A stretch of DNA of 64,000 bases, taken from positions 189,747-253,746 of the forward strand of contig JBBPIQ010000002.1 of NCBI GenBank assembly GCA_038040345.1. Direction: 5' to 3'. The stretch comes from Chloroflexota bacterium. Lineage in GTDB: Bacteria > Chloroflexota > Limnocylindria > P2-11E. Below are positions 48,749-64,000 of this stretch, piece after piece; position 1 is the stretch's first letter; every line of letters starts with the position of its first letter. A model generated the notes under the pieces. That model worked only from the letters and a program-made list of their open reading frames with translations, did no database searches and had not been told where the DNA came from. Both the position numbers and the translations under genes were made by a program.

Positions 48749-49120
48749 TCATGATCCTCTGAAGCGATCGAGCTCGCGGCGCTCGCGCTTTGTCGGACGG
48801 CCGCTGCCCGGCTCTCGTACGGCTACGCGTGGCTGTCGCTTGACCACCGGCGCAGGCGGGCTGTGGTCGACCATGCACTTCGCCGCCGCCGGCGCCCCAA
48901 CGCGCTTTTCGATGATGACCACGACCTCGAGAATGCGGGGACGCCCGACGAACGCGTCGATGCGGTCGCCGACCTTCACCTGCGTCGACGCCTTGGCCGC
49001 ACCGCTGTTCACGCGCACATGGCCGCCACGGCAGGCGGCCGTCGCTTCCGACCGAGACTTATAGATCCGGACGGCCCACAGCCAGATGTCTACCCGGGTT
49101 TTTTCTGTGCCTGTGACCAT
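48749..49120 (-). CDS. S4-domain RNA-binding protein (Hsp15/HslR-like)
   Basis: RVDIWLWAVRIYKSRSEATAACRGGHVRVNSGAAKASTQVKVGDRI; basic C-terminal tail. Confidence 0.55.
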   Translation of the reverse strand: MVTGTEKTRVDIWLWAVRIYKSRSEATAACRGGHVRVNSGAAKASTQVKVGDRIDAFVGRPRILEVVVIIEKRVGAPAAAKCMVDHSPPAPVVKRQPRVAVREPGSGRPTKRERRELDRFRGS

Positions 49121-49486
49121 CAAGGCTCCGAGAGCGAACGTTAACGACTGGCACAAGCCTCGGTGCATCGCGACCGTCCCGGGCGCGGGCGACCGATTTG
49201 TCTCCGATTTCGACACCGAAGACACCTAGGCTCGTTTAGCGGCACCTCTCAGCGCATCGGACCCAAAGATAGGCCCGGTTTGTTTCCTGGGTTACGAAAT
49301 CGTCATCGGGGTGTGGCTCCGATTCGCGCATGATTCGGTTCGTGGCGCGACGTTGGTCGGTGCCACCTGCACGGCGATCTGATCGCTGACGCCAGGGGGG
49401 GCGGCGCGATCGTCTACACGGCGCAAAGAGCGTCGGAGCGCGCGGATACGACAAGACGAAGAAGATTTGAAAGAAGGCACCTCTCA

Positions 49487-50452
49487 ATGACAACGAACAT
49501 TACCCACGCGCGTCCTCGAGTTCGCGGTCCAAAATTACTGCTGACAGCTGCGGTCGCGGTCATGCTCGCGATGAGCATGCTCACGTTGGGAGGACCCACC
49601 GCGAACGCGGCGGCTCCAGGACCATCCCTTGGAATCGCTGGCAACTTCGCGATCCTCAGCGCAGCCGACGGGGGTTTGGGAGCGGTGACCTGTGTTGGCC
49701 CCGCCACGATCATCGGAAACCTGGGCTCCTCTGGCGTCCCGGCCTCGATCACTCCAGGCACGTGCACGATTACGGGGTCGCAGACCGCGCCGGTCTCGGC
49801 TGGAGTTGTAGCGGCCTTTGACAAGGCGTATGCGGCGCTTGGGCTCGTGCCGTGCACCACGACCATCCTTACTGCGGCCTACACGACCACGACGCTCTCG
49901 CTCGGGTCCGGTGTCACCTGTTTCCCGAACGGGCTGACGTTCACAGACAGCACGTTGATCCTCACCGGGAGCGGGCCCTGGCTCATCGAGGTCGGGACTC
50001 TGGCCACCGGCAACAGCGGCGCTCTCACGGGCACCAATCTCCATATGGTCCTGCCCGCTGGCGCGAACCCGTGTGACGTGACGTGGTGGGTCCGCGCGGG
50101 TGCGTCCATGACCACTTCGAACGCCACCGGCACGCAGTTCTTCGGCACGGTTCTCGCCGGGGCGGCAATCACCGTGATCGGGACGACCGTTGGAACCTTC
50201 AACGGGCGGGCTCTCGCCAAAGCCGCGGTGTCGATCACCGGCGGCACCTTCACCGGCTGCACAGGCGGAAGCCTTGGCGGCGGAGGCAAGAACAAGGACA
50301 AACACGAGGCCTGCAACCAGGGCGTAGGCAACGGGCCCGAGGACTGTGATCCGGGCAACTCGAACCAGGGCGACGACGACCGTTCGAACGACGAGAACGG
50401 CGGGACGCCTGGGCACCCTGGCCGCCAAGGCGGCAACGACAAGGACGACTAG
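49487..50452 (+). CDS. secreted DUF3494 (ice-binding-like beta-helix) family protein
   Basis: signal peptide; LGIAGNFAILSAADGGLGAVTCVGPATIIGNLGSSG motif; Thr/Gly-rich repeats; acidic Gly/Asp/Asn-rich tail. Confidence 0.65.
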   Translation: MTTNITHARPRVRGPKLLLTAAVAVMLAMSMLTLGGPTANAAAPGPSLGIAGNFAILSAADGGLGAVTCVGPATIIGNLGSSGVPASITPGTCTITGSQTAPVSAGVVAAFDKAYAALGLVPCTTTILTAAYTTTTLSLGSGVTCFPNGLTFTDSTLILTGSGPWLIEVGTLATGNSGALTGTNLHMVLPAGANPCDVTWWVRAGASMTTSNATGTQFFGTVLAGAAITVIGTTVGTFNGRALAKAAVSITGGTFTGCTGGSLGGGGKNKDKHEACNQGVGNGPEDCDPGNSNQGDDDRSNDENGGTPGHPGRQGGNDKDD

Positions 50453-50524: not shown

Positions 50525-51595
50525 CTAGAGCTCGCGATCCAGGGCGAGCAAGATCCTGCACATGCGGTCGACGCGGCGGCGTGACCAGCCGGGCTCTCGC
50601 TCATGCGTGTCGAGTCCCGGTGCGGAGTTCACCTCTAATACGGTGCACCTCTTTGGCAGCGCATCGGATGGTTGACTGAGGACTAGGTCCAGGCTGGCGA
50701 GGCGCAGGCCCATGTCGCCAACCACTCGGATAGCGAGCGCTCCTAGCTTGGGGTGCAGCACTTCAGTCACCAGCCGAACGTCACCACCCACGCCGAGATT
50801 GCCGCATGGCAGAAGCTCGACGCGTTGACCTGCGGTAGGCACCGTTTCGAGCGCCTGGCGACTGTGGGCGAGGTGCCTGCCCACCCGGACATCGTCTACG
50901 CGCAGCCGGGTCGGGTGCCCTGCTGCGCGGCTGCGTCGCTGGCCAGTCGCGATGAGCTTGCGAATACTGGAGTGGCCATCACCGAGCACGTACGGCCGCG
51001 TCTTCTCGCTCGCCATCAGGACCTCGCCGTCGAGGACGACTATCGAGCAGTCGCTGCCGCGTGCGATGCGCTGCACCAGGAGCTTCTTGGAGGCGGCGAA
51101 GACCTCACGGGCGGCCGCGTAGAACTGCGCGCGGGTATAGACGACGCACACGTGCTGGTCGCCGGAGCTGTCGTTTGGTTTGAGTAGCACTGGCAACCCG
51201 AGCCTCTGCGCGTACGCGTAGGCGCCCCCGATGCCGCGCGCCTCGTGGAGCCGCCCGTAATACGAGAAGCTGCGTCCAGTCGGGACCGTGTGGCCCAACT
51301 GCTTGAGCACACGCGCGGTGGCGTCCTTATCGAGAGCGATCGCCGCCGCACCAAGGGTGTTGAGGTCCCATTGCAGTCGGTGGAAGTAGCGCACGCGACC
51401 TGACGGAAGGGTGATCCTGCCCGAGTTGTCCGCCTTGGGTATGACCTCCAGTTTGGCACCGACGAGGTCGCAGGCCTCCTTGAGACGCGAGAGGAACGGC
51501 GTCTTCACCTCGCGATCTATGGCCGCCTGAGGCGATCGAGTTCGCGGGGCTCTCGCTTGACCACGGGCACAGGCGGGCTGTGGTCGACCAGACAC
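50525..51595 (-). CDS. ATP-grasp family ligase (RimK/GshB-like fold)
   Basis: C-terminal VLEVNSAPGL motif; alternative start about 51508; N-terminus overlaps the S4 remnant. Confidence 0.55.
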   Translation of the reverse strand: MSGRPQPACARGQARAPRTRSPQAAIDREVKTPFLSRLKEACDLVGAKLEVIPKADNSGRITLPSGRVRYFHRLQWDLNTLGAAAIALDKDATARVLKQLGHTVPTGRSFSYYGRLHEARGIGGAYAYAQRLGLPVLLKPNDSSGDQHVCVVYTRAQFYAAAREVFAASKKLLVQRIARGSDCSIVVLDGEVLMASEKTRPYVLGDGHSSIRKLIATGQRRSRAAGHPTRLRVDDVRVGRHLAHSRQALETVPTAGQRVELLPCGNLGVGGDVRLVTEVLHPKLGALAIRVVGDMGLRLASLDLVLSQPSDALPKRCTVLEVNSAPGLDTHEREPGWSRRRVDRMCRILLALDREL

Positions 51596-51720
51596 TTCGC
51601 CGCCGCACTGTTCACGCGAACCCGGCCACGGCAGGCGGCCGTCGCCTCCGAACGGGTCTTATAGATCCGGACGGCCCACAGCCAGATGTCTACCCGGGCC
51701 CTCTCGATATGGGCGTGAAA
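51517..51720 (-). pseudogene. degenerate duplicate of the S4-domain gene at 48749-49120
   Basis: about 190 bp near-identical to 48749-49110 with two in-frame internal deletions (about 54 and 117 bp) that remove the S4 core. Confidence 0.5.
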
Positions 51721-54214: not shown

Positions 54215-54793
54215 TCAAGCGCTCGAACCAAAACCAGAGGAGTCGCTCGTGTCCGGCGGCACTGGCGCTCCGTCCTTCGTTCCCGTGGAGACGAAGTTCG
54301 CCTTCAGCTCGCGCAACGGGTCAGGGCCGTTCGAGTGCCTAGCGCTCGCACCGAGCGCTGTGCGGGGTACTGCGGGCAGCGGCAACTTCGATACCAACGT
54401 CATGTATGTCACCGGGACGATCACCTCGGCTGAGGTCAACGGGCAGACCGCGGTCTTGAAGGGGTGCGGCGGTCTTGAAATTGATCGTTGTGCGTGCAGG
54501 GAGCGGCAGGAGTAGGCGCGCTTCTGGTCGATGATGATCGGCGCGTTCAGGTGCTCGATCCGCTCGACGTCGGGCTGCCCGTAGTGCGGCATGAAGCCTT
54601 GGACGAAGAAGGTGAACGTCTCGTTGAGCTGCCGCTGCGCCTCGGCGGCGATCGTGTCGAACACGAGCGAGGACTTCCCCGAGCCGGAGATGCCGGTGAA
54701 GACTGTGATCTTCTGCTTCGGGATGGACAGCGAGACGTTCTTGAGGTTTTTCTCGCGGGCGCCGTGGACCTCGATGAACGGATGGTCGGTCAT
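54215..54793 (-). pseudogene. UvrA-like ABC ATPase, N-terminal fragment only
   Basis: first about 93 codons match the UvrA N-terminus (GAREKNLKNVSLSIP, Walker A GISGSGKSSL, FDTIAAEAQRQ, IIIDQK); the remainder of the ORF is unrelated. Confidence 0.5.
54441..54480 (+). other. tRNA-Ser(UGA)-derived 5' fragment
   Basis: exact 16-nt match TGCGGCGGTCTTGAAA to the D-stem/anticodon arm of the tRNA at 56651; partial repeat CCGCGGTCTTGAA just upstream. Confidence 0.4.
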
Positions 54794-54900: not shown

Positions 54901-55374
54901 CTAGCGGGCGTGCGCGGCCACCCAAGTGGCGAGGCTGTCGAGAGACCCGCGGGCGCCCTCCGCGGCGTAGTACTTGGCGACCTTCTCGTCTCTCTCTTCC
55001 TTGCTGCCGAAGACCAAACGGAGTGTCGCCTCGGTCGTGGCGCCGCGCTCGGCGAGCGTCAGGACGGTCTTTACCTGGTTGGGGTCGTCCTTGCCCATCC
55101 CGTACATCCAGACGATACGTTCCGGTGGGGTGATCTCTTTCCAAACGAAGTGGTTCGGGTACTCGCTGCCGTCGGGGCCGTGGATCGTCGCGTCCCAGAC
55201 ACCGCCCGGCTTGAAGTCGAACGAGTGCGTGGTGATCTCGCCGCCCTTCGGCGCACACCACTCCTCGAGGTGGGCGGCGCTGGTGAACGCGTCGAACACG
55301 AGTCGTCGTGGCCCCTCGATGATCCGCGAGACTACGATCTCGCGCTCCGCCTCAGTGCTTGTTTCGGTTGCCAT
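54901..55374 (-). CDS. SRPBCC (AHSA1-like) family protein
   Basis: RIIEGPRRLVFDAFTSAAHLEEWCAPKG... Confidence 0.7.
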   Translation of the reverse strand: MATETSTEAEREIVVSRIIEGPRRLVFDAFTSAAHLEEWCAPKGGEITTHSFDFKPGGVWDATIHGPDGSEYPNHFVWKEITPPERIVWMYGMGKDDPNQVKTVLTLAERGATTEATLRLVFGSKEERDEKVAKYYAAEGARGSLDSLATWVAAHAR

Positions 55375-55741
55375 CTGTGTGCTCCTTCTGCTGCAATTTC
55401 TTCACGTATTCGTTTAGCCTCTCGAAGTTCTCGTTCCAGTACTGCTCGAATCCGACGACCCATTCGTGGACCGGCTCAAGGCCGCGCGCGTCGAGCGCGT
55501 AGAGCCGCTGCTGTCCCGACTCGCGAACGCGCACGAGGCCGACCTCGCGCAGCACACGAAGGTGCTTCGACGTCCGGGGCTGCGTGATCCGCAGCGCTCG
55601 GGCGAGCTCGTTCACCGGGCGCTCGCGCCCCTTCAGGAGCATGAGGATCCGGCGACGCTGCGGCTCGGCCACCGCGTTGAAGGCATCGGAGGTGGTCGCG
55701 GCTCGGGCCATGTCGCTTGAAATATATGTCCATATCGGCAT
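55352..55741 (-). CDS. ArsR/SmtB family transcriptional regulator
   Basis: FNAVAEPQRRRILMLLKGRERPVNELARALRITQPRTSKHLRVLREVGLV; start at 55741 or 55711. Confidence 0.7.
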   Translation of the reverse strand: MPIWTYISSDMARAATTSDAFNAVAEPQRRRILMLLKGRERPVNELARALRITQPRTSKHLRVLREVGLVRVRESGQQRLYALDARGLEPVHEWVVGFEQYWNENFERLNEYVKKLQQKEHTDGNRNKH

Positions 55742-56650: not shown

Positions 56651-56737
56651 GGAGGGGTGGCAGAGCGGTCGAATGCGGCGGTCTTGAAAACCGCTACGTC
56701 CTTAGGGGCGTCGTGGGTTCGAATCCCACTCCCTCCG
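56651..56737 (+). tRNA. tRNA-Ser (anticodon UGA)
   Basis: acceptor GGAGGGG/TCCCTCC, anticodon stem GCGGT/ACCGC with loop CTTGAAA, long variable arm, T-loop GTGGGTTCGAATCCCAC, discriminator G; CCA not encoded. Confidence 0.8.
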
Positions 56738-56744
56738 CAGTGTG

Positions 56745-57020
56745 CAACTGACGATGTCAACTGACATCTGTGGTCTTGCTCTTTTTGGCGCAGCCGCTCG
56801 TACGGAGTCTGACCGCCCAGGGCGCCGAGGGGCCGGTCGAAAGTGTAGAAGTCCTCCCACTCTTGAAGTTTGGTCATGAACAGCTCGCTCTGGTCGACGA
56901 CGACGCCATTGAGCTCATCCCATCGCCGGGCATCCAGGAGCCTCTGTCGCCGGAGGGTTGAGGGAGCGAGGAGTTGGGCAGCACGTTCGCGTTGGCCTTG
57001 CCGCTCGCCGGATCGGACGG
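56745..57020 (-). mobile_element. DDE transposase/integrase C-terminal remnant
   Basis: minus-strand frame reads ...LQEWEDFYTFDRPLGALGGQTPYERL, resembling the rve-core YNxxRPHxxLGGxTP motif; no N-terminal catalytic region present. Confidence 0.4.
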
Positions 57021-57022
57021 GG

Positions 57023-57763
57023 TCAGTTCTTCTCGGCGTCGGAAGCGCTGACGAATCGGTAGCCGGCGCCCGGGACCGTCTCGATGTACCGGGGCTTGTG
57101 CCAGTCGTCCTGGAGCTTCGCCCGCAGCGCCCGCACGTGGCGGTCCACGACGTTGCTCTCGATCACGAAGTCGGTGCCCCAGAGCGCGTCGAGGATCTGC
57201 TCGCGCGTGAGGACGCTCCCGGCGTTGGCGGCGAGAAGGTACAGCAGTGCCTGCTCGAGCGAGGTGAGGTGCAGCTCGTGTTCGCCAGCGAGCACCTTTC
57301 GGTTGAGAACGTCGATCTCGAGGTCACCAATGCGCAGGCGCGGGACCAGCTCTACGGCGCTGCCGTGGGTCCGGCGGATCACCGCGTGGGCGCGGGCGAC
57401 CAGATCGTCCGGCACGAAGGGGATGCCGATGTAATCGTCCGCGCCGCGCTCGAAGGCGTCGAGCTTCCCGCGGAGGTCGCTGCGCCGGGTGAGGGCGATG
57501 ACCGCTGTCGACCCCTGGGCGCGCGCCTCGTTGATGAGCTGGATCCCCCGACCGGCCTCGATGTCTATGTTGACCAGAAGGAGATGGGGCTTCCACTCCA
57601 CGATCGCGCCCTTGGCCTGATTCACCGTTTCCGCGATCCGGCGGGCGTATCGCCCATGCCGCAGGGTGAGGTCGACGGTGTTCGCGAGCGCTTTGTCGCC
57701 GATGACCAAGAGCACGCGGACCGCGCGGTCGGATTCTCTTGCGGCCGGCTCGGCCTCTGCCAT
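57023..57763 (-). CDS. OmpR-family response regulator (orphan)
   Basis: receiver domain followed by winged helix (ETVPGAGYRFV); no histidine kinase gene adjacent. Confidence 0.75.
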   Translation of the reverse strand: MAEAEPAARESDRAVRVLLVIGDKALANTVDLTLRHGRYARRIAETVNQAKGAIVEWKPHLLLVNIDIEAGRGIQLINEARAQGSTAVIALTRRSDLRGKLDAFERGADDYIGIPFVPDDLVARAHAVIRRTHGSAVELVPRLRIGDLEIDVLNRKVLAGEHELHLTSLEQALLYLLAANAGSVLTREQILDALWGTDFVIESNVVDRHVRALRAKLQDDWHKPRYIETVPGAGYRFVSASDAEKN

Positions 57764-57772
57764 CGGCCCATT

Positions 57773-58342
57773 CTAGGCTTGGCTGTTCTCGTAAATACGC
57801 ACGCCGAGCTCGCGGCTCAGCGGAAGTGGCCAGCCGGAGGGACCGCGCCCAACCGATACCGGATCGTCATAGCTACCGAGGAGCACCAAGAGACCCGCGT
57901 GCGTCCCGACAGGCGCTCCGATCCAGACCAGACCTACCGCGTGGCTCGTCGTTCCGTCGCCGGCCGGCTCTTGGCTGAGGGTGACCGGAGGAGCGCCGCC
58001 GGTATTGATACCAGATTCGGTCACGGCGAGCCGGAAGTGCGAAGGCGGACTTTGCGAGCCCTCGGCGATCCTCGGCCCGTAGTGTTTCGGCACCGCCCAG
58101 CTCGAGACCAACGGTTCGAGAGCCGCGCGTTGTGCCGCGTCGGCCTCGGTCGACTCTCCCGCGTGGAGCGCTCTGAGCATCGCGACGTCGCGTCGGTCGT
58201 CGATGCTCGTCAATAGAGGTATGGCGGGTTCGATCCCGTGTGGCGACCCCGCCACGATTCGCGCGGCCGCGCCGTCCACATCTGCGACGCGCAGCCGGAA
58301 CTCTTCGAGCACGAGGACGCGGATGGGGTCAGCGATCGACAC
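57773..58342 (-). CDS. hypothetical protein upstream of the response regulator
   Basis: 189-aa ORF with normal composition, 10-nt gap to the regulator gene. Confidence 0.35.
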   Translation of the reverse strand: MSIADPIRVLVLEEFRLRVADVDGAAARIVAGSPHGIEPAIPLLTSIDDRRDVAMLRALHAGESTEADAAQRAALEPLVSSWAVPKHYGPRIAEGSQSPPSHFRLAVTESGINTGGAPPVTLSQEPAGDGTTSHAVGLVWIGAPVGTHAGLLVLLGSYDDPVSVGRGPSGWPLPLSRELGVRIYENSQA

Positions 58343-58463
58343 TGTCTTGAACCCTGACGCCTGGGGGTGTCCTTGTCATGACCTTGCCGTCATCTGCGCC
58401 GCATCTGCCGCATGACTGTTTGGTCATGACTCGAGCAAGCAACCAGCCCAAGATGCAGTCGAG

Positions 58464-59441
58464 GTGTCCGACATGAAGAACTCAAAGGCACTCGCTGCGA
58501 CGGTCGTCATCGCGCTCATCATTGCGATCGGCGCGATGGCAGGCACCGCTGCGAATGCGGCAACTTCCACTGTTCCCCTGGGAACGGCTGCCAGCTTCTC
58601 GGTCCTCGGCGGTCTGGCAGTGACCAACACAGGCCCGACCACCACCGACAAAGACGTAGGGGTTTGGCCCGGTACCTCGGTGGGCGCGTGGCCGCCCGGA
58701 ATAGCCGGCGGGGCAATCCACGCGGGTGACGCCGTCGCGCAGCAGGCCCAGAGCGACCTGACCACCGCGTATAACAACGCCGCAGGACGAACGCCGTTCA
58801 CGGTTGTGGGTGGCGATCTCGTCGGGCAGACCCTCGTTGGTGGCGTCTATAGAGGCGGCACGCTCGGTCTCACAGGAGTGCTGACCCTCGATGGGCAGAA
58901 CGATCCAGCGTCCGTCTGGATCTTCCAGACGCCGGCAACCCTCATCACCGGGTCGTCGAGTCTTGTGAGCTTCATCAACGGCGCGAGCCCGTGCAACGTC
59001 TTCTGGCAGGTCGGGAGCTCAGCGACTCTGGGAACGGGCTCCACCTTCGTCGGCACGATCATGGCTCTAACCAAGATCACGGTCACTACCGGCGTGACCG
59101 TCTATGGCAGAGCGCTGGCCCGGAATGATGCCGTGACATTGGACAACGACCGATTCCTAACGTCAGTGTGCGCATCTGCGCTAAACATTCCGCCGACGCG
59201 GCCACCGTTCACGGTTGCACCTTCGGCAACTCCGATAGCCGCGCCCACAGCGACCCCGATCGGTGCGGCCACTCCAACCGCAGCGCCGACAGTCGCTCCA
59301 ACCGCAGCGCCGACAGTTCATCTAACAGTCCTGCCATCAACGAGCACGGCGGAGTCGTGGGGTCCGCTCGCGCTGCTTGGCCTGGCCCTGGCCAGCTTCG
59401 GGGCGCTTCTGCTGCTTCGTAGACCACTTCGGAACTTCTAG
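58464..59441 (+). CDS. secreted DUF3494 (ice-binding-like) protein with Pro/Thr/Ala linker and C-terminal hydrophobic-basic tail
   Basis: signal peptide; LGTAASFSVLGGLAVTNTGPTT; PTAAPTVAPTAAPT linker; C-terminus LPSTSTAE + hydrophobic helix + RRPLRNF. Confidence 0.65.
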   Translation: MSDMKNSKALAATVVIALIIAIGAMAGTAANAATSTVPLGTAASFSVLGGLAVTNTGPTTTDKDVGVWPGTSVGAWPPGIAGGAIHAGDAVAQQAQSDLTTAYNNAAGRTPFTVVGGDLVGQTLVGGVYRGGTLGLTGVLTLDGQNDPASVWIFQTPATLITGSSSLVSFINGASPCNVFWQVGSSATLGTGSTFVGTIMALTKITVTTGVTVYGRALARNDAVTLDNDRFLTSVCASALNIPPTRPPFTVAPSATPIAAPTATPIGAATPTAAPTVAPTAAPTVHLTVLPSTSTAESWGPLALLGLALASFGALLLLRRPLRNF

Positions 59442-59763
59442 CGAGATCCTCGCGCAAGACCGCCAAGCCAGGTGAAGATCCAGCTCAGTGCACTTGGCTT
59501 GGCGGCGGCGTGTGCGAGCAACTTGTTCGCGGATTCTCAGCTCCCGGACGCAAGTCGATCCATTGTTCAGGATCCTTCTCATAGTTGCGCTCGTCGTCAT
59601 AGTTCCGCGTGTTGGTCGACGAGGCGATCCGCCTGCTACTACAGCAATTCCTGTAGCAGAGACGAGCGACGGCCGCGCACGATCGGGGACGACACCGGAC
59701 GGGCTGCGCGATTTTCTCGAATGAATCGACGTTAGCGGACGATCATGGACGGGCCGGGGCGCA

Positions 59764-63619: not shown

Positions 63620-63712
63620 GGGGAGGTCGCATAGTTGGCCTAGTGCGCGGGTTTGCTAAACCCGTAAGGATGCCGTAAGGCGCCTTCGAGGGTTCGAATC
63701 CCTCCCTCCCCG
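63620..63712 (+). tRNA. tRNA-Ser (anticodon GCU)
   Basis: acceptor GGGGAGG/CCTCCCC, anticodon stem CGGGT/ACCCG with loop TTGCTAA, long variable arm, T-loop GAGGGTTCGAATCCCTC. Confidence 0.8.
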
Positions 63713-63725
63713 CAGTTGTGATGTC

Positions 63726-64000
63726 TCAGGACATCGAGGACACCTGTCTCACGACATTGTGGACAGGTGTCCGCGCGCCGAAATAGCGGCGGCTCGGATC
63801 GAGGGTGAGCTCGCGTAGCAGCTGACCGTCGTCGCGGACGATCCGGACGTTCGCGCCGGCGATGAGCAGACGGATCCGCTCACCCTTGTGCGCGCGTCCG
63901 ACGTAGATGTGCCGCAGCTGGCTCAGGTAGCGCAGCGTGACTCGACCGCAGCTATCCACCTTGTCATGGCGGACCCGGAAGTCGGTGACCGTCTCCGGCA
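63726..64000 (-). mobile_element. transposase/integrase gene, C-terminal part (continues beyond window)
   Basis: stop 13 nt downstream of the tRNA-Ser(GCU) 3' end on the opposite strand; C-terminus ...GERIRLLIAGANVRIVRDDGQLLRELTLDPSRRY; family assignment tentative. Confidence 0.45.

What the first reader, a model, noticed from the sequence alone, without database searches (positions are those of the whole stretch)
57023..58463. Orphan response regulator with upstream hypothetical gene and paired GTCATGAC palindromes
The OmpR-type regulator has no adjacent histidine kinase and is preceded in the same operon by a 189-aa protein of unknown function. The divergent intergenic region shared with the DUF3494 gene (58343-58463) contains two copies of the palindrome GTCATGAC about 48 bp apart plus a tandem CATCTGC(G)CCG repeat, plausible operator sites.
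Basis: seen in the sequence. Interest (0 to 1): 0.45.

Follow-up and report, generated by a model that had tools for sequence, protein, structure and literature searches.

The report
Kinase-less, aspartate-less regulator cassette with operators
This is one copy of a signalling cassette found only in soil Chloroflexota (Limnocylindria): a DNA-binding response regulator that has lost its phosphorylation site and its kinase, is always co-encoded with a new small barrel-fold protein, and sits next to conserved palindromic operator sites. It is a natural example of a two-component regulator evolving away from phosphorylation.

Summary
The OmpR-type regulator (RR, 57023-57763, minus strand) follows a 189-aa gene (HY, 57773-58342, minus strand) after a 9-nt gap. 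The only two GTCATGAC copies in 64 kb lie 48 bp apart in the divergent intergenic region.

The interpretation needs revision in four places:
- **Operator.** The real element is an 18-bp palindrome, cATGAC-N6-GTCATg. It is conserved upstream of HY in about 60 related loci. It recurs upstream of other cluster genes (kinase, receiver-less wHTH, YggT, small membrane proteins). The tandem CATCTGC repeat lies in a variable spacer and is not conserved.
- **Orphan status.** It is local and derived. 18 of 28 Asp-type relatives carry a soluble REC-HisKA-HATPase kinase beside the RR. The window has none in 64 kb.
- **Receiver.** This RR has Asn65 at the phospho-acceptor position. Every family member lacks the conserved Lys (Ile114 here). 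It is still under purifying selection (dN/dS 0.10).

Best reading: a kinase-less, aspartate-less paralogue of an HY-RR-kinase module. It probably autoregulates and controls envelope-protein genes, with HY as the likely non-phosphoryl input.

Verdict: a new variant of a known kind, of moderate interest.

The parts
57023..57763 (-). OmpR/PhoB-type response regulator (RR, 246 aa) with a pseudo-receiver. DD positions are Ile21-Gly22, the phospho-acceptor position is Asn65, Thr92 is kept, and the conserved Lys is replaced by Ile114. The C-terminal winged helix is intact.
   Evidence: Pfam hits. Full-length alignment to KdpE, MtrA, PrrA and RegX3 structures, with residue-by-residue alignment to KdpE. 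Family alignment. Residue numbering. dN/dS 0.10 against L003.
57764..57772 (-). 9-nt HY-RR junction (stop codon, 9 nt, ATG) with no Shine-Dalgarno sequence. This suggests co-transcription and probably coupled translation.
   Evidence: The junction is conserved as TAG/TAA + 9 nt + ATG/GTG in L002-L007 (10 nt in L001; different in L008). No terminator was found between the genes.
57773..58342 (-). HY: a 189-aa cytoplasmic protein of a Limnocylindria-restricted family with no sequence-level family. The predicted fold is a tandem ferredoxin-like (ABM / dimeric alpha-beta barrel) domain in one chain. It is the conserved upstream partner of the RR.
58375..58393 (.). HY-proximal operator: GTCATGAC + CTTGCC + GTCAT, with the core 16-mer ATGAC-N6-GTCAT at 58378-58393. 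It overlaps the inferred -35 (ATGACA, 58379->58374 on the minus strand) of the HY-RR promoter. The core centre lies about 42 bp upstream of the HY start codon / inferred TSS.
   Evidence: Conserved at -39/-40 from the HY start in about 60 loci. Logo gcgTGACGgCaa.GTCATGACA.
58351..58356 (-). Inferred -10 element of the HY-RR promoter (CAGGGT; family consensus CAnnGT). It lies 17 nt after the ATGACA -35 and 7-8 nt before the start codon, so the HY mRNA would be leaderless. This is an inference only.
   Evidence: Conserved C-A..G-T columns in a 62-sequence logo anchored on the proximal operator. No Shine-Dalgarno sequence before HY. The strict sigma-70 scan found no promoter.
58391..58410 (.). 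Tandem CATCTGCGCCG / CATCTGCCG in the spacer between the two operators. It is not conserved.
   Evidence: The spacer is variable in sequence and length (5-30 nt) among relatives.
58412..58430 (.). Distal (DUF3494-side) operator: ATGAC + TGTTTG + GTCATGAC, with the core 16-mer at 58412-58427. It overlaps the inferred -35 (ATGACT, 58426-58431) of the DUF3494 promoter. The inferred -10 is CAAGAT at 58449-58454.
   Evidence: Conserved as cgagTCATGACgaatC.GTCAtg in 58 distinct sequences. Promoter elements are read from the sequence and are an inference.
58464..59441 (+). Divergent target gene: a DUF3494 / ice-binding-like surface protein. It has a signal peptide, a Pro/Thr/Ala-rich stalk and an LPSTS-type C-terminal anchor. 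The likely true start is ATG 58474.
   Evidence: Ice_binding 182 bits; LPXTG_anchor 15.9 bits, at its cut-off. Orthologues are divergent from HY in L003, L004, L009, L010 and others.
56939..59569 (.). Extent of the cassette (DUF3494, operators, HY, RR) shared with the closest relative, L003. The flanks differ on both sides.
   Evidence: blastn of the window against L003: 85.7% identity over 2.68 kb, ending 84 bp beyond the RR stop and 128 bp beyond the DUF3494 stop.

Best explanation
The locus is a kinase-less, aspartate-less paralogous copy of a signalling cassette specific to Candidatus Limnocylindria (Chloroflexota).

Family architecture (shown by comparison). The ancestral module is HY, then an OmpR-type RR, then a soluble REC-HisKA-HATPase kinase. 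A receiver-less wHTH gene and an ArsR-type gene often accompany it. Every transcription unit of the cluster is preceded by the palindrome cATGAC-N6-GTCATg. So are nearby genes for envelope proteins: a DUF3494 surface protein, YggT, and small membrane or secreted proteins.

This copy. Only DUF3494, the operators, HY and RR remain. I infer four steps:
1. The RR, as a dimer through its PhoB/KdpE-like winged helix, binds the two 16-bp palindromes. Each is centred about 42 bp upstream of one of the two divergent start sites and overlaps a weak -35. Binding would activate, class-II style, both the leaderless HY-RR operon (positive autoregulation) and the DUF3494 gene.
2. This RR cannot be controlled by Asp phosphorylation (Asn65, Ile114, no kinase). 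It is nevertheless under purifying selection.
3. Its activity is therefore set by its abundance and by HY. HY is made from the same message and is a tandem ABM-type barrel, a fold that typically binds or converts small hydrophobic ligands or haem. I propose that HY is the signal-input subunit. It would act either by contacting the pseudo-receiver directly or by making or removing a ligand.
4. In Asp-type relatives the adjacent kinase adds a phosphoryl input to the same circuit.

Shown: gene order, residue states, conservation and distribution of the operator, fold class of HY, absence of a kinase, purifying selection. Inferred: who binds the operator, the promoter and TSS positions, activation rather than repression, and the HY-RR functional link.
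For: - HY-RR adjacency in 62 of 69 non-redundant loci. It holds even at 31-37% HY identity (L008, L013). The 9-nt junction is conserved.
- A REC-HisKA-HATPase kinase lies next to the RR in L004, L009, L011/12, L005, L006 and others: 18 of 28 Asp-type loci. There is none in the window or in L003.
- L003 (Asn, no kinase) and L004 (Asp, kinase) are two cassettes in one MAG.
- Receiver residues: KdpE alignment. The Lys position is I, V or L in all relatives. Asn at the phospho-site occurs only in the window, L003, L025, L049 and L052-54.
- dN/dS is 0.10 for RR and 0.27 for HY against L003.
- Operator: only 2 per 64 kb here, both at the site. Fixed positions upstream of HY. 288 exact RTGAC-N6-GTCAY matches in 535 kb of related loci, which is 17 times the window's density. 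Of all 290 matches (the window's two included), 170 lie upstream of HY, 32 of wHTH-only genes, 22 of YggT and 17 of the kinase.
- Promoter geometry comes from the anchored logo.
- HY fold.
- OmpR-family regulators with degenerate receivers that act without phosphorylation are documented. HP1043 is modelled head-to-head on DNA, and OmpR itself can bind head-to-tail or head-to-head (PMC8345958; PMC12632262).
Against: - There is no direct evidence that this RR, rather than the receiver-less wHTH paralogue, the ArsR-type protein or an unlinked factor, binds the palindrome.
- Most OmpR/PhoB regulators bind direct repeats head-to-tail. A 5-N6-5 palindrome centred near -41.5 is more typical of CRP/FNR-type dimers.
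- Operators persist upstream of HY where the RR is missing (L014-17, L032).
- The promoter hexamers are weak, and the consensus scan found none.
- No test of HY-RR contact was possible. HY could be a co-regulated enzyme.
- One Asn-type lineage (L053/54) still has the kinase 2 kb downstream, so loss of Asp and loss of the kinase are not strictly linked. The association is 0/3 against 18/28, in non-independent data.
- The DD assignment depends on an ungapped alignment. Asp23 lies one residue after the canonical DD2 position.
- All comparative data come from MAGs and metagenome contigs.
Confidence: 0.6

Rival explanations
1. The palindromes are operators for a different dimeric regulator, not for this RR. 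Candidates are the receiver-less wHTH paralogue, the ArsR-type protein found in many clusters, or an unlinked CRP/FNR-like factor. The RR would then be merely one of the regulated genes.
For: - The 5-N6-5 palindromic architecture centred near -41.5 is classic for symmetric HTH dimers (my knowledge).
- Sites remain upstream of HY in loci that lack the RR but keep the wHTH-only gene (L014-17, L028).
- wHTH-only genes carry their own sites, 32 in all.
- ArsR genes sit in L011, L014 and L053.
Against: - The window and L003 have neither a wHTH-only gene nor the cluster-type ArsR. The nearby ArsR at 55352-55741 is only 33% identical to the cluster ArsR and lies outside the shared cassette. The operators are nonetheless intact.
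- The RR is the only DNA-binding protein in the 2.6-kb conserved cassette.
- GTCA(C/T)-type half-sites resemble those of PhoB/MtrA-type winged helices (my knowledge).
- No CRP/FNR gene appears in any annotated neighbourhood.
Confidence: 0.2
2. HY is simply a co-regulated cargo enzyme with no role in controlling the RR. It would be, for example, a cofactor-independent ABM-type oxygenase or isomerase acting in envelope or redox stress. The RR would be constitutively active, or controlled only by its expression level or by heterodimerising with a kinase-linked paralogue.
For: - The closest folds are 'putative monooxygenases', HmoB, PenE and LsrG-like ABM enzymes.
- HY persists without RR or kinase in a few loci (L027, L032).
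- Paralogous cassettes sharing the same operator coexist in one genome (L003 and L004), which allows cross-regulation.
Against: - HY is always the first gene of the regulator operon, with a 9-nt coupled junction.
- HY accompanies the signalling genes, not the variable target genes, in 62 of 69 loci and across 31-98% identity.
- HY has no invariant His or Cys, as haem-degrading ABM enzymes would need. Instead it has many invariant Arg, Glu and Asp residues and conserved motifs in predicted loops (FRLAVTESGIN, WPLPLS).
Confidence: 0.3
3. The RR is an ordinary phosphorylatable regulator whose kinase is encoded elsewhere in the genome. A candidate is the kinase of a paralogous cassette. It would be phosphorylated at a neighbouring acidic residue such as Asp67.
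For: - Most family members keep Asp at the phospho-site and have an adjacent kinase.
- Only 64 kb of a much longer contig was examined. An identical RR protein is recorded from a 375-kb contig.
- An Asp follows two residues after Asn65.
Against: - Asn replaces the acceptor Asp in the alignment to KdpE.
- The catalytic Lys is absent and the DD pair is degenerate.
- Under the definitions in PMC12632262 this is an aspartate-less pseudo-receiver. Position D+2 is not a known acceptor (my knowledge).
Confidence: 0.08
4. The inverted repeat functions as a nucleic-acid hairpin or cruciform (an attenuator, terminator or recombination site) rather than as protein-binding sites.
For: The 70-nt segment folds with z = -4.1 on the plus strand and -3.7 on the minus strand relative to shuffles.
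Against: - Pairing between the arms is confined to the conserved half-sites.
- The N6 segments of the two arms are complementary at 31%, roughly what unrelated sequence would give.
- The inter-site spacer ranges from 5 to 30 nt.
- Single copies of the 16-mer occur alone upstream of many other genes.
- There is no Rfam match.
Confidence: 0.03

Closest known systems
Atypical (pseudo-receiver) OmpR/PhoB-family response regulators that act without phosphorylation, e.g. H. pylori HP1043/HsrA and C. trachomatis ChxR
   Same: - The same two-domain architecture: a REC-like domain plus a winged helix.
- Degenerate phosphorylation pocket and no cognate kinase at the locus.
- HP1043 is modelled as a head-to-head dimer on its DNA site (PMC8345958). 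That would fit a palindromic operator.
- HP1043 (2hqr) is among the sequence hits.
   Different: - Sequence is closer to KdpE, MtrA and PhoB than to HP1043 or ChxR.
- Here the degeneration is recent and polymorphic. Orthologues 82-89% identical keep Asp and an adjacent kinase.
- Every member lacks Lys.
- A dedicated partner gene (HY) is co-transcribed, which has not been reported for those regulators as far as I know.
Aspartate-less receiver (ALR) domains / pseudo-receivers as defined by Maule et al. 2015 (PMC4395418) and the 2025 J Bacteriol review (PMC12632262)
   Same: It meets the definition. It lacks the D site (Asn65) and also K (Ile114) and at least DD1/DD2 by alignment.
   Different: According to that review the commonest replacements are D to Glu and K to Arg. 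Here they are D to Asn and K to Ile, Val or Leu.
Two-component systems with a co-transcribed auxiliary protein ('three-component' systems, e.g. LiaFSR, SaePQRS, MtrAB-LpqB, CseABC; my knowledge)
   Same: An accessory gene of unrelated fold is encoded in the same operon as the RR and kinase, and the operon has its own operator (autoregulation).
   Different: - Known auxiliaries are mostly membrane or lipoproteins acting on a membrane kinase.
- HY, the RR and the kinase are all predicted to be cytoplasmic.
- HY stays with the RR when the kinase is lost, which points to the RR side of the pathway.
Tandem ABM / dimeric alpha-beta-barrel proteins (PDB 3f44, 3mcs, 2pgc; related single-domain ABM proteins HmoB, LsrG, S. 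aureus TRAP)
   Same: - LsrG and TRAP show that the fold is used in signalling circuits (my knowledge for their roles).
   Different: - Only 8-12% identity, with no Pfam ABM hit and no PDB sequence hit.
- No conserved His or Cys.
- Two long low-confidence loops, one of which (161-175) carries a conserved motif, WPLPLS.
- The top structural neighbours themselves have no known function.
E. coli KdpE / PhoB and actinobacterial MtrA (closest characterised sequences)
   Same: Full-length alignment: KdpE 4kfc E 2.5e-33, MtrA 2gwr 5e-32. NCBIfam PhoB 153.7 bits and MtrA 152.1 bits.
   Different: - All scores are far below the equivalog cut-offs (about 296-300 bits).
- Public annotations calling relatives 'KdpE' are not supported. 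There are no kdp genes nearby, and the context and operator differ.

Membership tests
OmpR/PhoB-family response regulator | N-terminal receiver-fold (REC) domain | tested here: met
   PF00072 scores 36.9 bits against a 30.2 cut-off, residues 18-125. Aligns to KdpE, MtrA, PrrA and RegX3 over residues 14-238.
OmpR/PhoB-family response regulator | C-terminal winged-helix Trans_reg_C DNA-binding domain | tested here: met
   PF00486 scores 91.4 bits, residues 162-237, covering the full model.
Canonical phosphorylatable receiver | Phospho-acceptor Asp at the end of beta-3 | tested here: not met
   Asn65 aligns with KdpE Asp52 (LLLVNIDIE against LIILDLGLP). The same Asn occurs in L003, L025, L049 and L052-54. 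All other relatives have Asp.
Canonical phosphorylatable receiver | Conserved Lys before the Pro of the beta5-alpha5 loop (K-P-F) | tested here: not met
   GADDYIGIPF against KdpE GADDYLSKPF gives Ile114. The position is I, V or L in every relative examined.
Canonical phosphorylatable receiver | Acidic DD pair after beta-1 | tested here: inconclusive
   The ungapped alignment puts Ile21-Gly22 opposite KdpE Glu-Asp, with Asp23 one residue later. The distant clade has I-E-D-D. A one-residue shift cannot be excluded without a structure.
Canonical phosphorylatable receiver | Conserved Thr/Ser at the end of beta-4 | tested here: met
   Thr92 in VIALTRRS aligns with the KdpE Ser in VIVLSARS.
Aspartate-less receiver / atypical response regulator (PMC12632262 definition) | Receiver-fold domain lacking the D phosphorylation site (ALR) or any of the five active-site residues (PsR) | tested here: met
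   Asn65 and Ile114. Definition quoted from the review.
Orphan response regulator | No histidine kinase gene at or near the locus | tested here: met
   No HisKA/HATPase ORF in the 64-kb window. This is not a property of the family: a kinase is adjacent in 18 of 28 Asp-type relatives. The rest of the genome was not available.
KdpE / PhoB / MtrA equivalogs | NCBIfam equivalog score above cut-off and the matching genomic context | tested here: not met
   Scores of 124-154 bits against cut-offs of about 296-471. No kdp, pst or mtrB genes in the neighbourhood.
ABM / dimeric alpha-beta barrel superfamily (HY) | Ferredoxin-like beta-alpha-beta-beta-alpha-beta repeat forming an alpha+beta barrel | tested here: met
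   [not shown]
ABM / dimeric alpha-beta barrel superfamily (HY) | Sequence-level membership (Pfam ABM or related models) or known catalytic / haem-binding residues | tested here: not met
   No Pfam hit for any of the 63 members except scattered noise. No PDB sequence hit with the family profile at E up to 10. No invariant His or Cys.
DUF3494 / ice-binding-like protein (divergent gene) | PF11999 domain; secretion signal and cell-wall anchor | tested here: met
   PF11999 scores 182 bits. The LPXTG_anchor model scores 15.9 bits, exactly at its cut-off. The N-terminal hydrophobic signal-like segment was read from the sequence. Ice binding itself was not tested.
Transcription-factor operator | Sequence conserved at a fixed position relative to orthologous genes, and over-represented upstream of a coherent gene set | tested here: met
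Transcription-factor operator | Demonstrated binding by a specific protein | not testable with these tools
   Requires EMSA, footprinting or DAP-seq.

The most novel reading that the evidence does not exclude
HY is a new kind of input module for a pseudo-receiver. It would be a cytoplasmic, ligand-binding tandem-ABM barrel that docks on the Lys-less (and here Asp-less) receiver of an OmpR-type regulator and gates its dimerisation and DNA binding. On this reading the HY-RR pair is a self-contained, kinase-independent 'two-component' switch. Natural Asp/Asn variants and copies with and without the kinase would capture the evolutionary hand-over from phosphoryl control to partner-protein control.
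Probability: 0.25. Interest if true: 0.72.

Novelty: new variant of a known kind. Interest (0 to 1): 0.5.

Why it matters
How pseudo-receiver (atypical) response regulators are switched on and off is an acknowledged open question. The 2025 J Bacteriol review (PMC12632262) says that their activation and inactivation mechanisms 'remain a mystery'.

This family offers a natural comparative series:
- All orthologues lack the catalytic Lys.
- Orthologues 82-98% identical carry either Asp or Asn at the phospho-site.
- Copies occur with and without an adjacent soluble kinase.
- A dedicated, co-translated partner protein of a ligand-binding fold is nearly always present.
- The operator is clearly defined.

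That combination makes the question testable with a few recombinant proteins and one 70-bp DNA fragment. The module also defines a first candidate regulon (envelope, membrane and surface proteins) and a new protein family for Limnocylindria, an abundant but uncultured soil lineage. Finally, it corrects public 'KdpE' annotations of these regulators.

Tried and rejected
- **Sequence-family searches for HY.** Pfam and NCBIfam on the single sequence, Pfam on all 63 aligned members, a family profile against PDB sequences, PADLOC and PHROGs all found nothing.
- **Foldseek against AFDB50.** The library was not available.
- **HY-RR co-fold as a natural fusion.** The two ORFs are in frame. Translating across the stop codon was rejected. 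A concatenated sequence aligned with HY and RR homologues was grossly misaligned by MAFFT.
- **Stop-codon read-through fusion of HY and RR.** Rejected because the stop is TAG or TAA interchangeably, and the distant clade is out of frame.
- **Strict link between Asp-to-Asn and kinase loss.** Rejected as a rule. L053/54 keep a kinase 2 kb away. Only a trend remains.
- **Hairpin or RNA element.** Rejected.
- **The nearby ArsR (55352-55741) as part of the module.** Rejected. It is only 33% identical to the cluster ArsR and lies outside the shared cassette.
- **Consensus sigma-70 promoter scan.** It found nothing. The promoter model therefore rests on conservation only.
- **Look-up of the source contig via the identical RR protein.** It failed.
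- **First genome-collection scan.** Run with a single protein, it returned only 6 loci.
- **Literature search on Limnocylindria regulators.** It found nothing relevant.
Full report
**1. Observation**

- The RR ORF is 57023-57763 (minus strand, 246 aa). It scores Trans_reg_C 91.4 bits and Response_reg 36.9 bits.
- The 189-aa ORF (here called HY) is 57773-58342 on the same strand. It ends with TAG, 9 nt before the RR ATG.
- The divergent gene is a DUF3494 / ice-binding-like protein (182 bits) with an LPXTG-type anchor at threshold. Its longest ORF starts at GTG 58464. The conserved start, preceded by GAGGTG, is ATG 58474.
- GTCATGAC occurs at 58375-58382 and 58423-58430 and nowhere else in the 64 kb, against 0.84 expected for the whole window.
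- The two 8-mers are the outer ends of a 19-nt imperfect inverted repeat.
- Each arm contains the 16-mer ATGAC-N6-GTCAT. These are the only exact RTGAC-N6-GTCAY matches in the window.
- The tandem CATCTGCGCCG / CATCTGCCG (58391-58410) is real.

**2. Origin and extent of the unit**

- HY has more than 881 homologues at 70-98% identity. All are unnamed, and the few that carry an organism label come from Chloroflexota / Candidatus Limnocylindria; the rest are unlabelled metagenome contigs.
- An exhaustive HMMER scan of 1.84 billion cluster representatives found only 67 clusters at 50% identity. Those that are full length are about 190 aa.
- I collected 93 related loci.
- The window shares only 56939-59569 with its closest relative, L003 (85.7% nucleotide identity). 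That span is the DUF3494-operator-HY-RR cassette; the flanks are unrelated.
- Just beyond the RR in the window lie tRNA-Ser(tga) at 56651-56738 and a short ORF fragment that resembles the C-terminus of an rve-type transposase (read by eye; no Pfam hit).

**3. HY-RR is the conserved pair; DUF3494 is not**

- Of 69 non-redundant loci with at least 400 bp after HY, 62 have the RR immediately downstream.
- This includes the distant clade, where HY is 31-37% and RR 53-55% identical (L008, L013).
- The stop + 9 nt + start junction is conserved, with TAG and TAA used interchangeably and no Shine-Dalgarno sequence. This indicates co-transcription and probably coupled translation.
- There are seven exceptions:
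  - In L014-L017, HY is followed directly by the kinase, and by a receiver-less wHTH gene where the contig extends that far.
  - In L027, L028 and L032, HY is followed by unrelated genes (L028 also keeps a wHTH-only gene).
- L002 is counted among the 62, but its RR has decayed to frameshifted fragments beside a ParE/Phd pair.
- DUF3494 is divergent from HY only in a minority of loci. Elsewhere a 61-63-aa membrane protein gene, or a YggT gene one position further out, occupies the upstream side.

**4. The orphan status is local and derived**

- Many relatives encode a soluble 383-394-aa kinase (REC + HisKA + HATPase_c, no membrane segment) next to the RR. It lies either 160-215 bp downstream on the same strand or convergently.
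- Among loci with at least 1.4 kb after the RR, 18 of 28 Asp-type loci have the kinase within 600 bp.
- The kinase's own N-terminal receiver has all canonical residues: VVEDD, ILDGE, FSAD, GKPF (read).
- The window has no HisKA/HATPase ORF at all. tblastn and a custom kinase profile run against every six-frame ORF hit only the RR.
- L003 (no kinase) and L004 (with kinase) are two paralogous cassettes in one MAG. The window copy is the orthologue of the kinase-less paralogue.

**5. The receiver is a pseudo-receiver**

Residue-by-residue alignment to KdpE gives the following.

| Active-site position | KdpE | This RR |
|---|---|---|
| DD pair | Glu-Asp | Ile21-Gly22 (Asp23 one residue later) |
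| Phospho-acceptor D | Asp52 | Asn65 |
| T | Ser | Thr92 |
| K (in K-P-F) | Lys | Ile114 |

- Across about 65 relatives the Lys position is always Ile, Val or Leu.
- The acceptor is Asp except in the window, L003, L025, L049 and L052-54, where it is Asn.
- By the definitions in PMC12632262, the whole family is a pseudo-receiver family, and the window protein is also an aspartate-less receiver.
- None of the three Asn-type loci with enough flank has an adjacent kinase, against 18 of 28 for Asp-type. L053/54 (Asn) keep a kinase 2 kb away, after a wHTH-only gene and an ArsR gene. The link is a trend, not a rule.
- The Asn-type RR is not decaying. dN/dS against L003 is 0.10 for the RR (16 synonymous against 5 non-synonymous differences) and 0.27 for HY.

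**6. The operator**

- Upstream of HY, the proximal GTCATGAC sits at -39/-40 from the start codon in almost every locus. A second site lies 25-50 bp further up.
- Logos give gcgTGACGgCaa.GTCATGACA (proximal) and cgagTCATGACgaatC.GTCAtg (distal). For sites elsewhere the logo is cATGACgg.tcCGTCATGc, which is an 18-bp palindrome, CATGAC-N6-GTCATG.
- In 535 kb of related loci there are 288 exact RTGAC-N6-GTCAY matches (0.54 per kb, against 0.03 per kb in the window).
- Of all 290 matches, counting the window's two, the locations are as follows:

| Location | Matches |
|---|---|
| Upstream of HY | 170 |
| Upstream of the receiver-less wHTH genes | 32 |
| Upstream of YggT | 22 |
| Upstream of the kinase | 17 |
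| Unassigned, largely next to small membrane or secreted protein genes | 36 |
| Other labelled categories (RR-family hits, DUF3494, and three minor ones) | 13 |

- The unassigned set includes sub-threshold Transgly_assoc and DoxD-like proteins.
- The spacer between the two HY sites ranges from 5 to 30 nt and is not conserved. The window's tandem CATCTGC repeat lies in it and is absent even from L003.
- The predicted hairpin (z about -4) is a by-product of two palindromes. Inter-arm complementarity in the N6 segments is 31%, close to what unrelated sequence would give. Single sites occur alone elsewhere, and there is no Rfam hit.

**7. Promoter geometry (inference)**

- Anchoring 62 distinct upstream sequences on the proximal site shows only one further conserved feature, C-A-n-n-G-T. 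It lies 17 nt after ATGACA and 7 nt before the ATG, with no Shine-Dalgarno sequence.
- I read this as a weak -35 (inside the operator), a -10, and a leaderless HY mRNA. That puts the 16-mer centre at about -42.
- The window's distal site has the mirror arrangement for DUF3494: ATGACT 58426-58431, 17 nt, CAAGAT 58449-58454, and a TSS near 58461, upstream of GAGGTG and ATG 58474.
- The strict consensus scan found no promoter. Weak hexamers overlapped by an operator near -42 are what activator-dependent (class II) promoters look like (my knowledge). Repression cannot be excluded.

**8. HY**

- It has no signal peptide or membrane segment.
- The AF2 model (63-sequence alignment, pLDDT 76, pTM 0.74) has two ferredoxin-like repeats and two low-confidence loops, 111-132 and 161-175.
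- Invariant residues are mostly charged or Gly: E14, R16, D49, R91, N113, R182, Y184. No His or Cys is invariant.
- The motifs FRLAVTESGIN and GWPLPLSxDLGVRIY are nearly invariant. The WPLPLS part of the second lies in a low-confidence loop (161-175), and the first runs into the start of the other (111-132).
- There is no sequence-level family in any library.

**9. Most likely mechanism**

- The RR, the only DNA-binding protein in the 2.6-kb cassette, binds the two palindromes as dimers. It thereby controls both divergent promoters: autoregulation plus an envelope or surface-protein regulon.
- In this copy, control cannot come through Asp phosphorylation.
- HY is made stoichiometrically from the same leaderless message and has a small-molecule-binding fold. 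It is the best candidate for the input, either by contact with the pseudo-receiver or by acting on a ligand.
- In Asp-type relatives the soluble kinase adds, or ancestrally provided, a phosphoryl input.

| Claim | My probability |
|---|---|
| Derived kinase-less paralogue of an HY-RR-kinase module | ~0.8 |
| The palindromes are operators | ~0.9 |
| The RR is the protein that binds them | ~0.65 |
| HY directly modulates the RR | ~0.3-0.4 |

Rivals are listed separately in the Rival explanations section.

**10. Comparison with known systems and novelty**

- The RR is an OmpR/PhoB-family member, closest to KdpE, MtrA and PhoB. It fails their equivalog thresholds and their contexts, so the 'KdpE' names in public annotations are wrong.
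- It works like the atypical OmpR-type regulators HP1043 and ChxR. HP1043 gives a precedent for head-to-head binding.
- The co-transcribed accessory protein recalls 'three-component' systems. Here, however, the accessory is cytoplasmic, has an ABM-type fold, and stays with the RR after kinase loss.
- I found no paper on this module.
- I rate it a new variant of a known kind. The HY family and the operator are new; the principle (an atypical regulator with a partner) is not.
- Interest is moderate. The main value is a natural Asp/Asn and with/without-kinase series bearing on how pseudo-receivers are controlled.

Noticed in passing
window 49119-49229 (+), 49291-49306, 49487-50452 (+): There is a relic of a second cassette. 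An 87-nt fragment matches the RR 3' end (82-85% nucleotide identity; it encodes ...NDWHKPRCIATVPGAGDRFVS...*). It is followed by a degenerate operator half (GTTACGAAATCGTCAT). Next comes a 321-aa secreted protein with weak similarity to the DUF3494 protein (39% over 82 aa) but no Pfam hit.
   Followed up: partly
window 56651-56738 (+) and 63620-63713 (+); 56770-56877 (-) and 63726-63959 (-): Two tRNA-Ser genes (anticodons tga and gct) are each followed by a short ORF fragment that looks like the C-terminus of an rve-type transposase. That reading is by eye; the first fragment has no Pfam hit and the second was not scanned. They bracket the region that holds the cassette, which suggests insertions or rearrangements at tRNA genes.
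   Followed up: partly
window 48749-49225 (-) and 51517-51700 (-): Two near-identical S4-domain / Hsp15-like segments (RVDIWLWAVRIYK[ST]RSEATAACRG...) lie about 2.5 kb apart. This is another sign of local duplication or rearrangement.
   Followed up: no
window 54215-54793 (-): A 192-aa ORF begins like a UvrA-type ABC ATPase (Walker A GISGSGKSS) but loses similarity after about 90 residues. It is probably a truncated pseudogene. Only sub-threshold P-loop Pfam hits were found.
   Followed up: partly
L011 13397-13780, L014 3440-3817, L028 5415-5798, L053 6650-7048: Receiver-less paralogues of the RR (about 125-132 aa, Trans_reg_C only, about 46-49% identical to the RR DNA-binding domain) recur in the clusters. 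In the annotated examples an ArsR-type gene lies next to them. Each has its own ATGAC-N6-GTCAT site immediately upstream.
   Followed up: partly
L002 6580-6961: In one relative the RR gene has decayed into frameshifted fragments and is truncated by a ParE/Phd toxin-antitoxin pair. HY and both operators remain intact.
   Followed up: partly
L011 11410-11757 (-): A 115-aa remnant of the DUF3494 gene keeps only the signal peptide and the C-terminal LPST-anchor regions. It sits between the RR and the kinase, which shows how fluid the target-gene slot is.
   Followed up: no
L013 11511-16583: In the distant clade the HY-RR pair is followed by a GGDEF-EAL protein, a KaiC/RecA-like ATPase and a different 442-aa histidine kinase. 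An ATGACGGTACCGTCAT site lies upstream of that kinase.
   Followed up: no
window 57023-58342 (-): HY and RR are in the same reading frame, separated only by a stop codon and three codons. This also holds in most close relatives. Read-through fusion was considered and judged unlikely, because TAG and TAA are used interchangeably and the distant clade is out of frame.
   Followed up: yes
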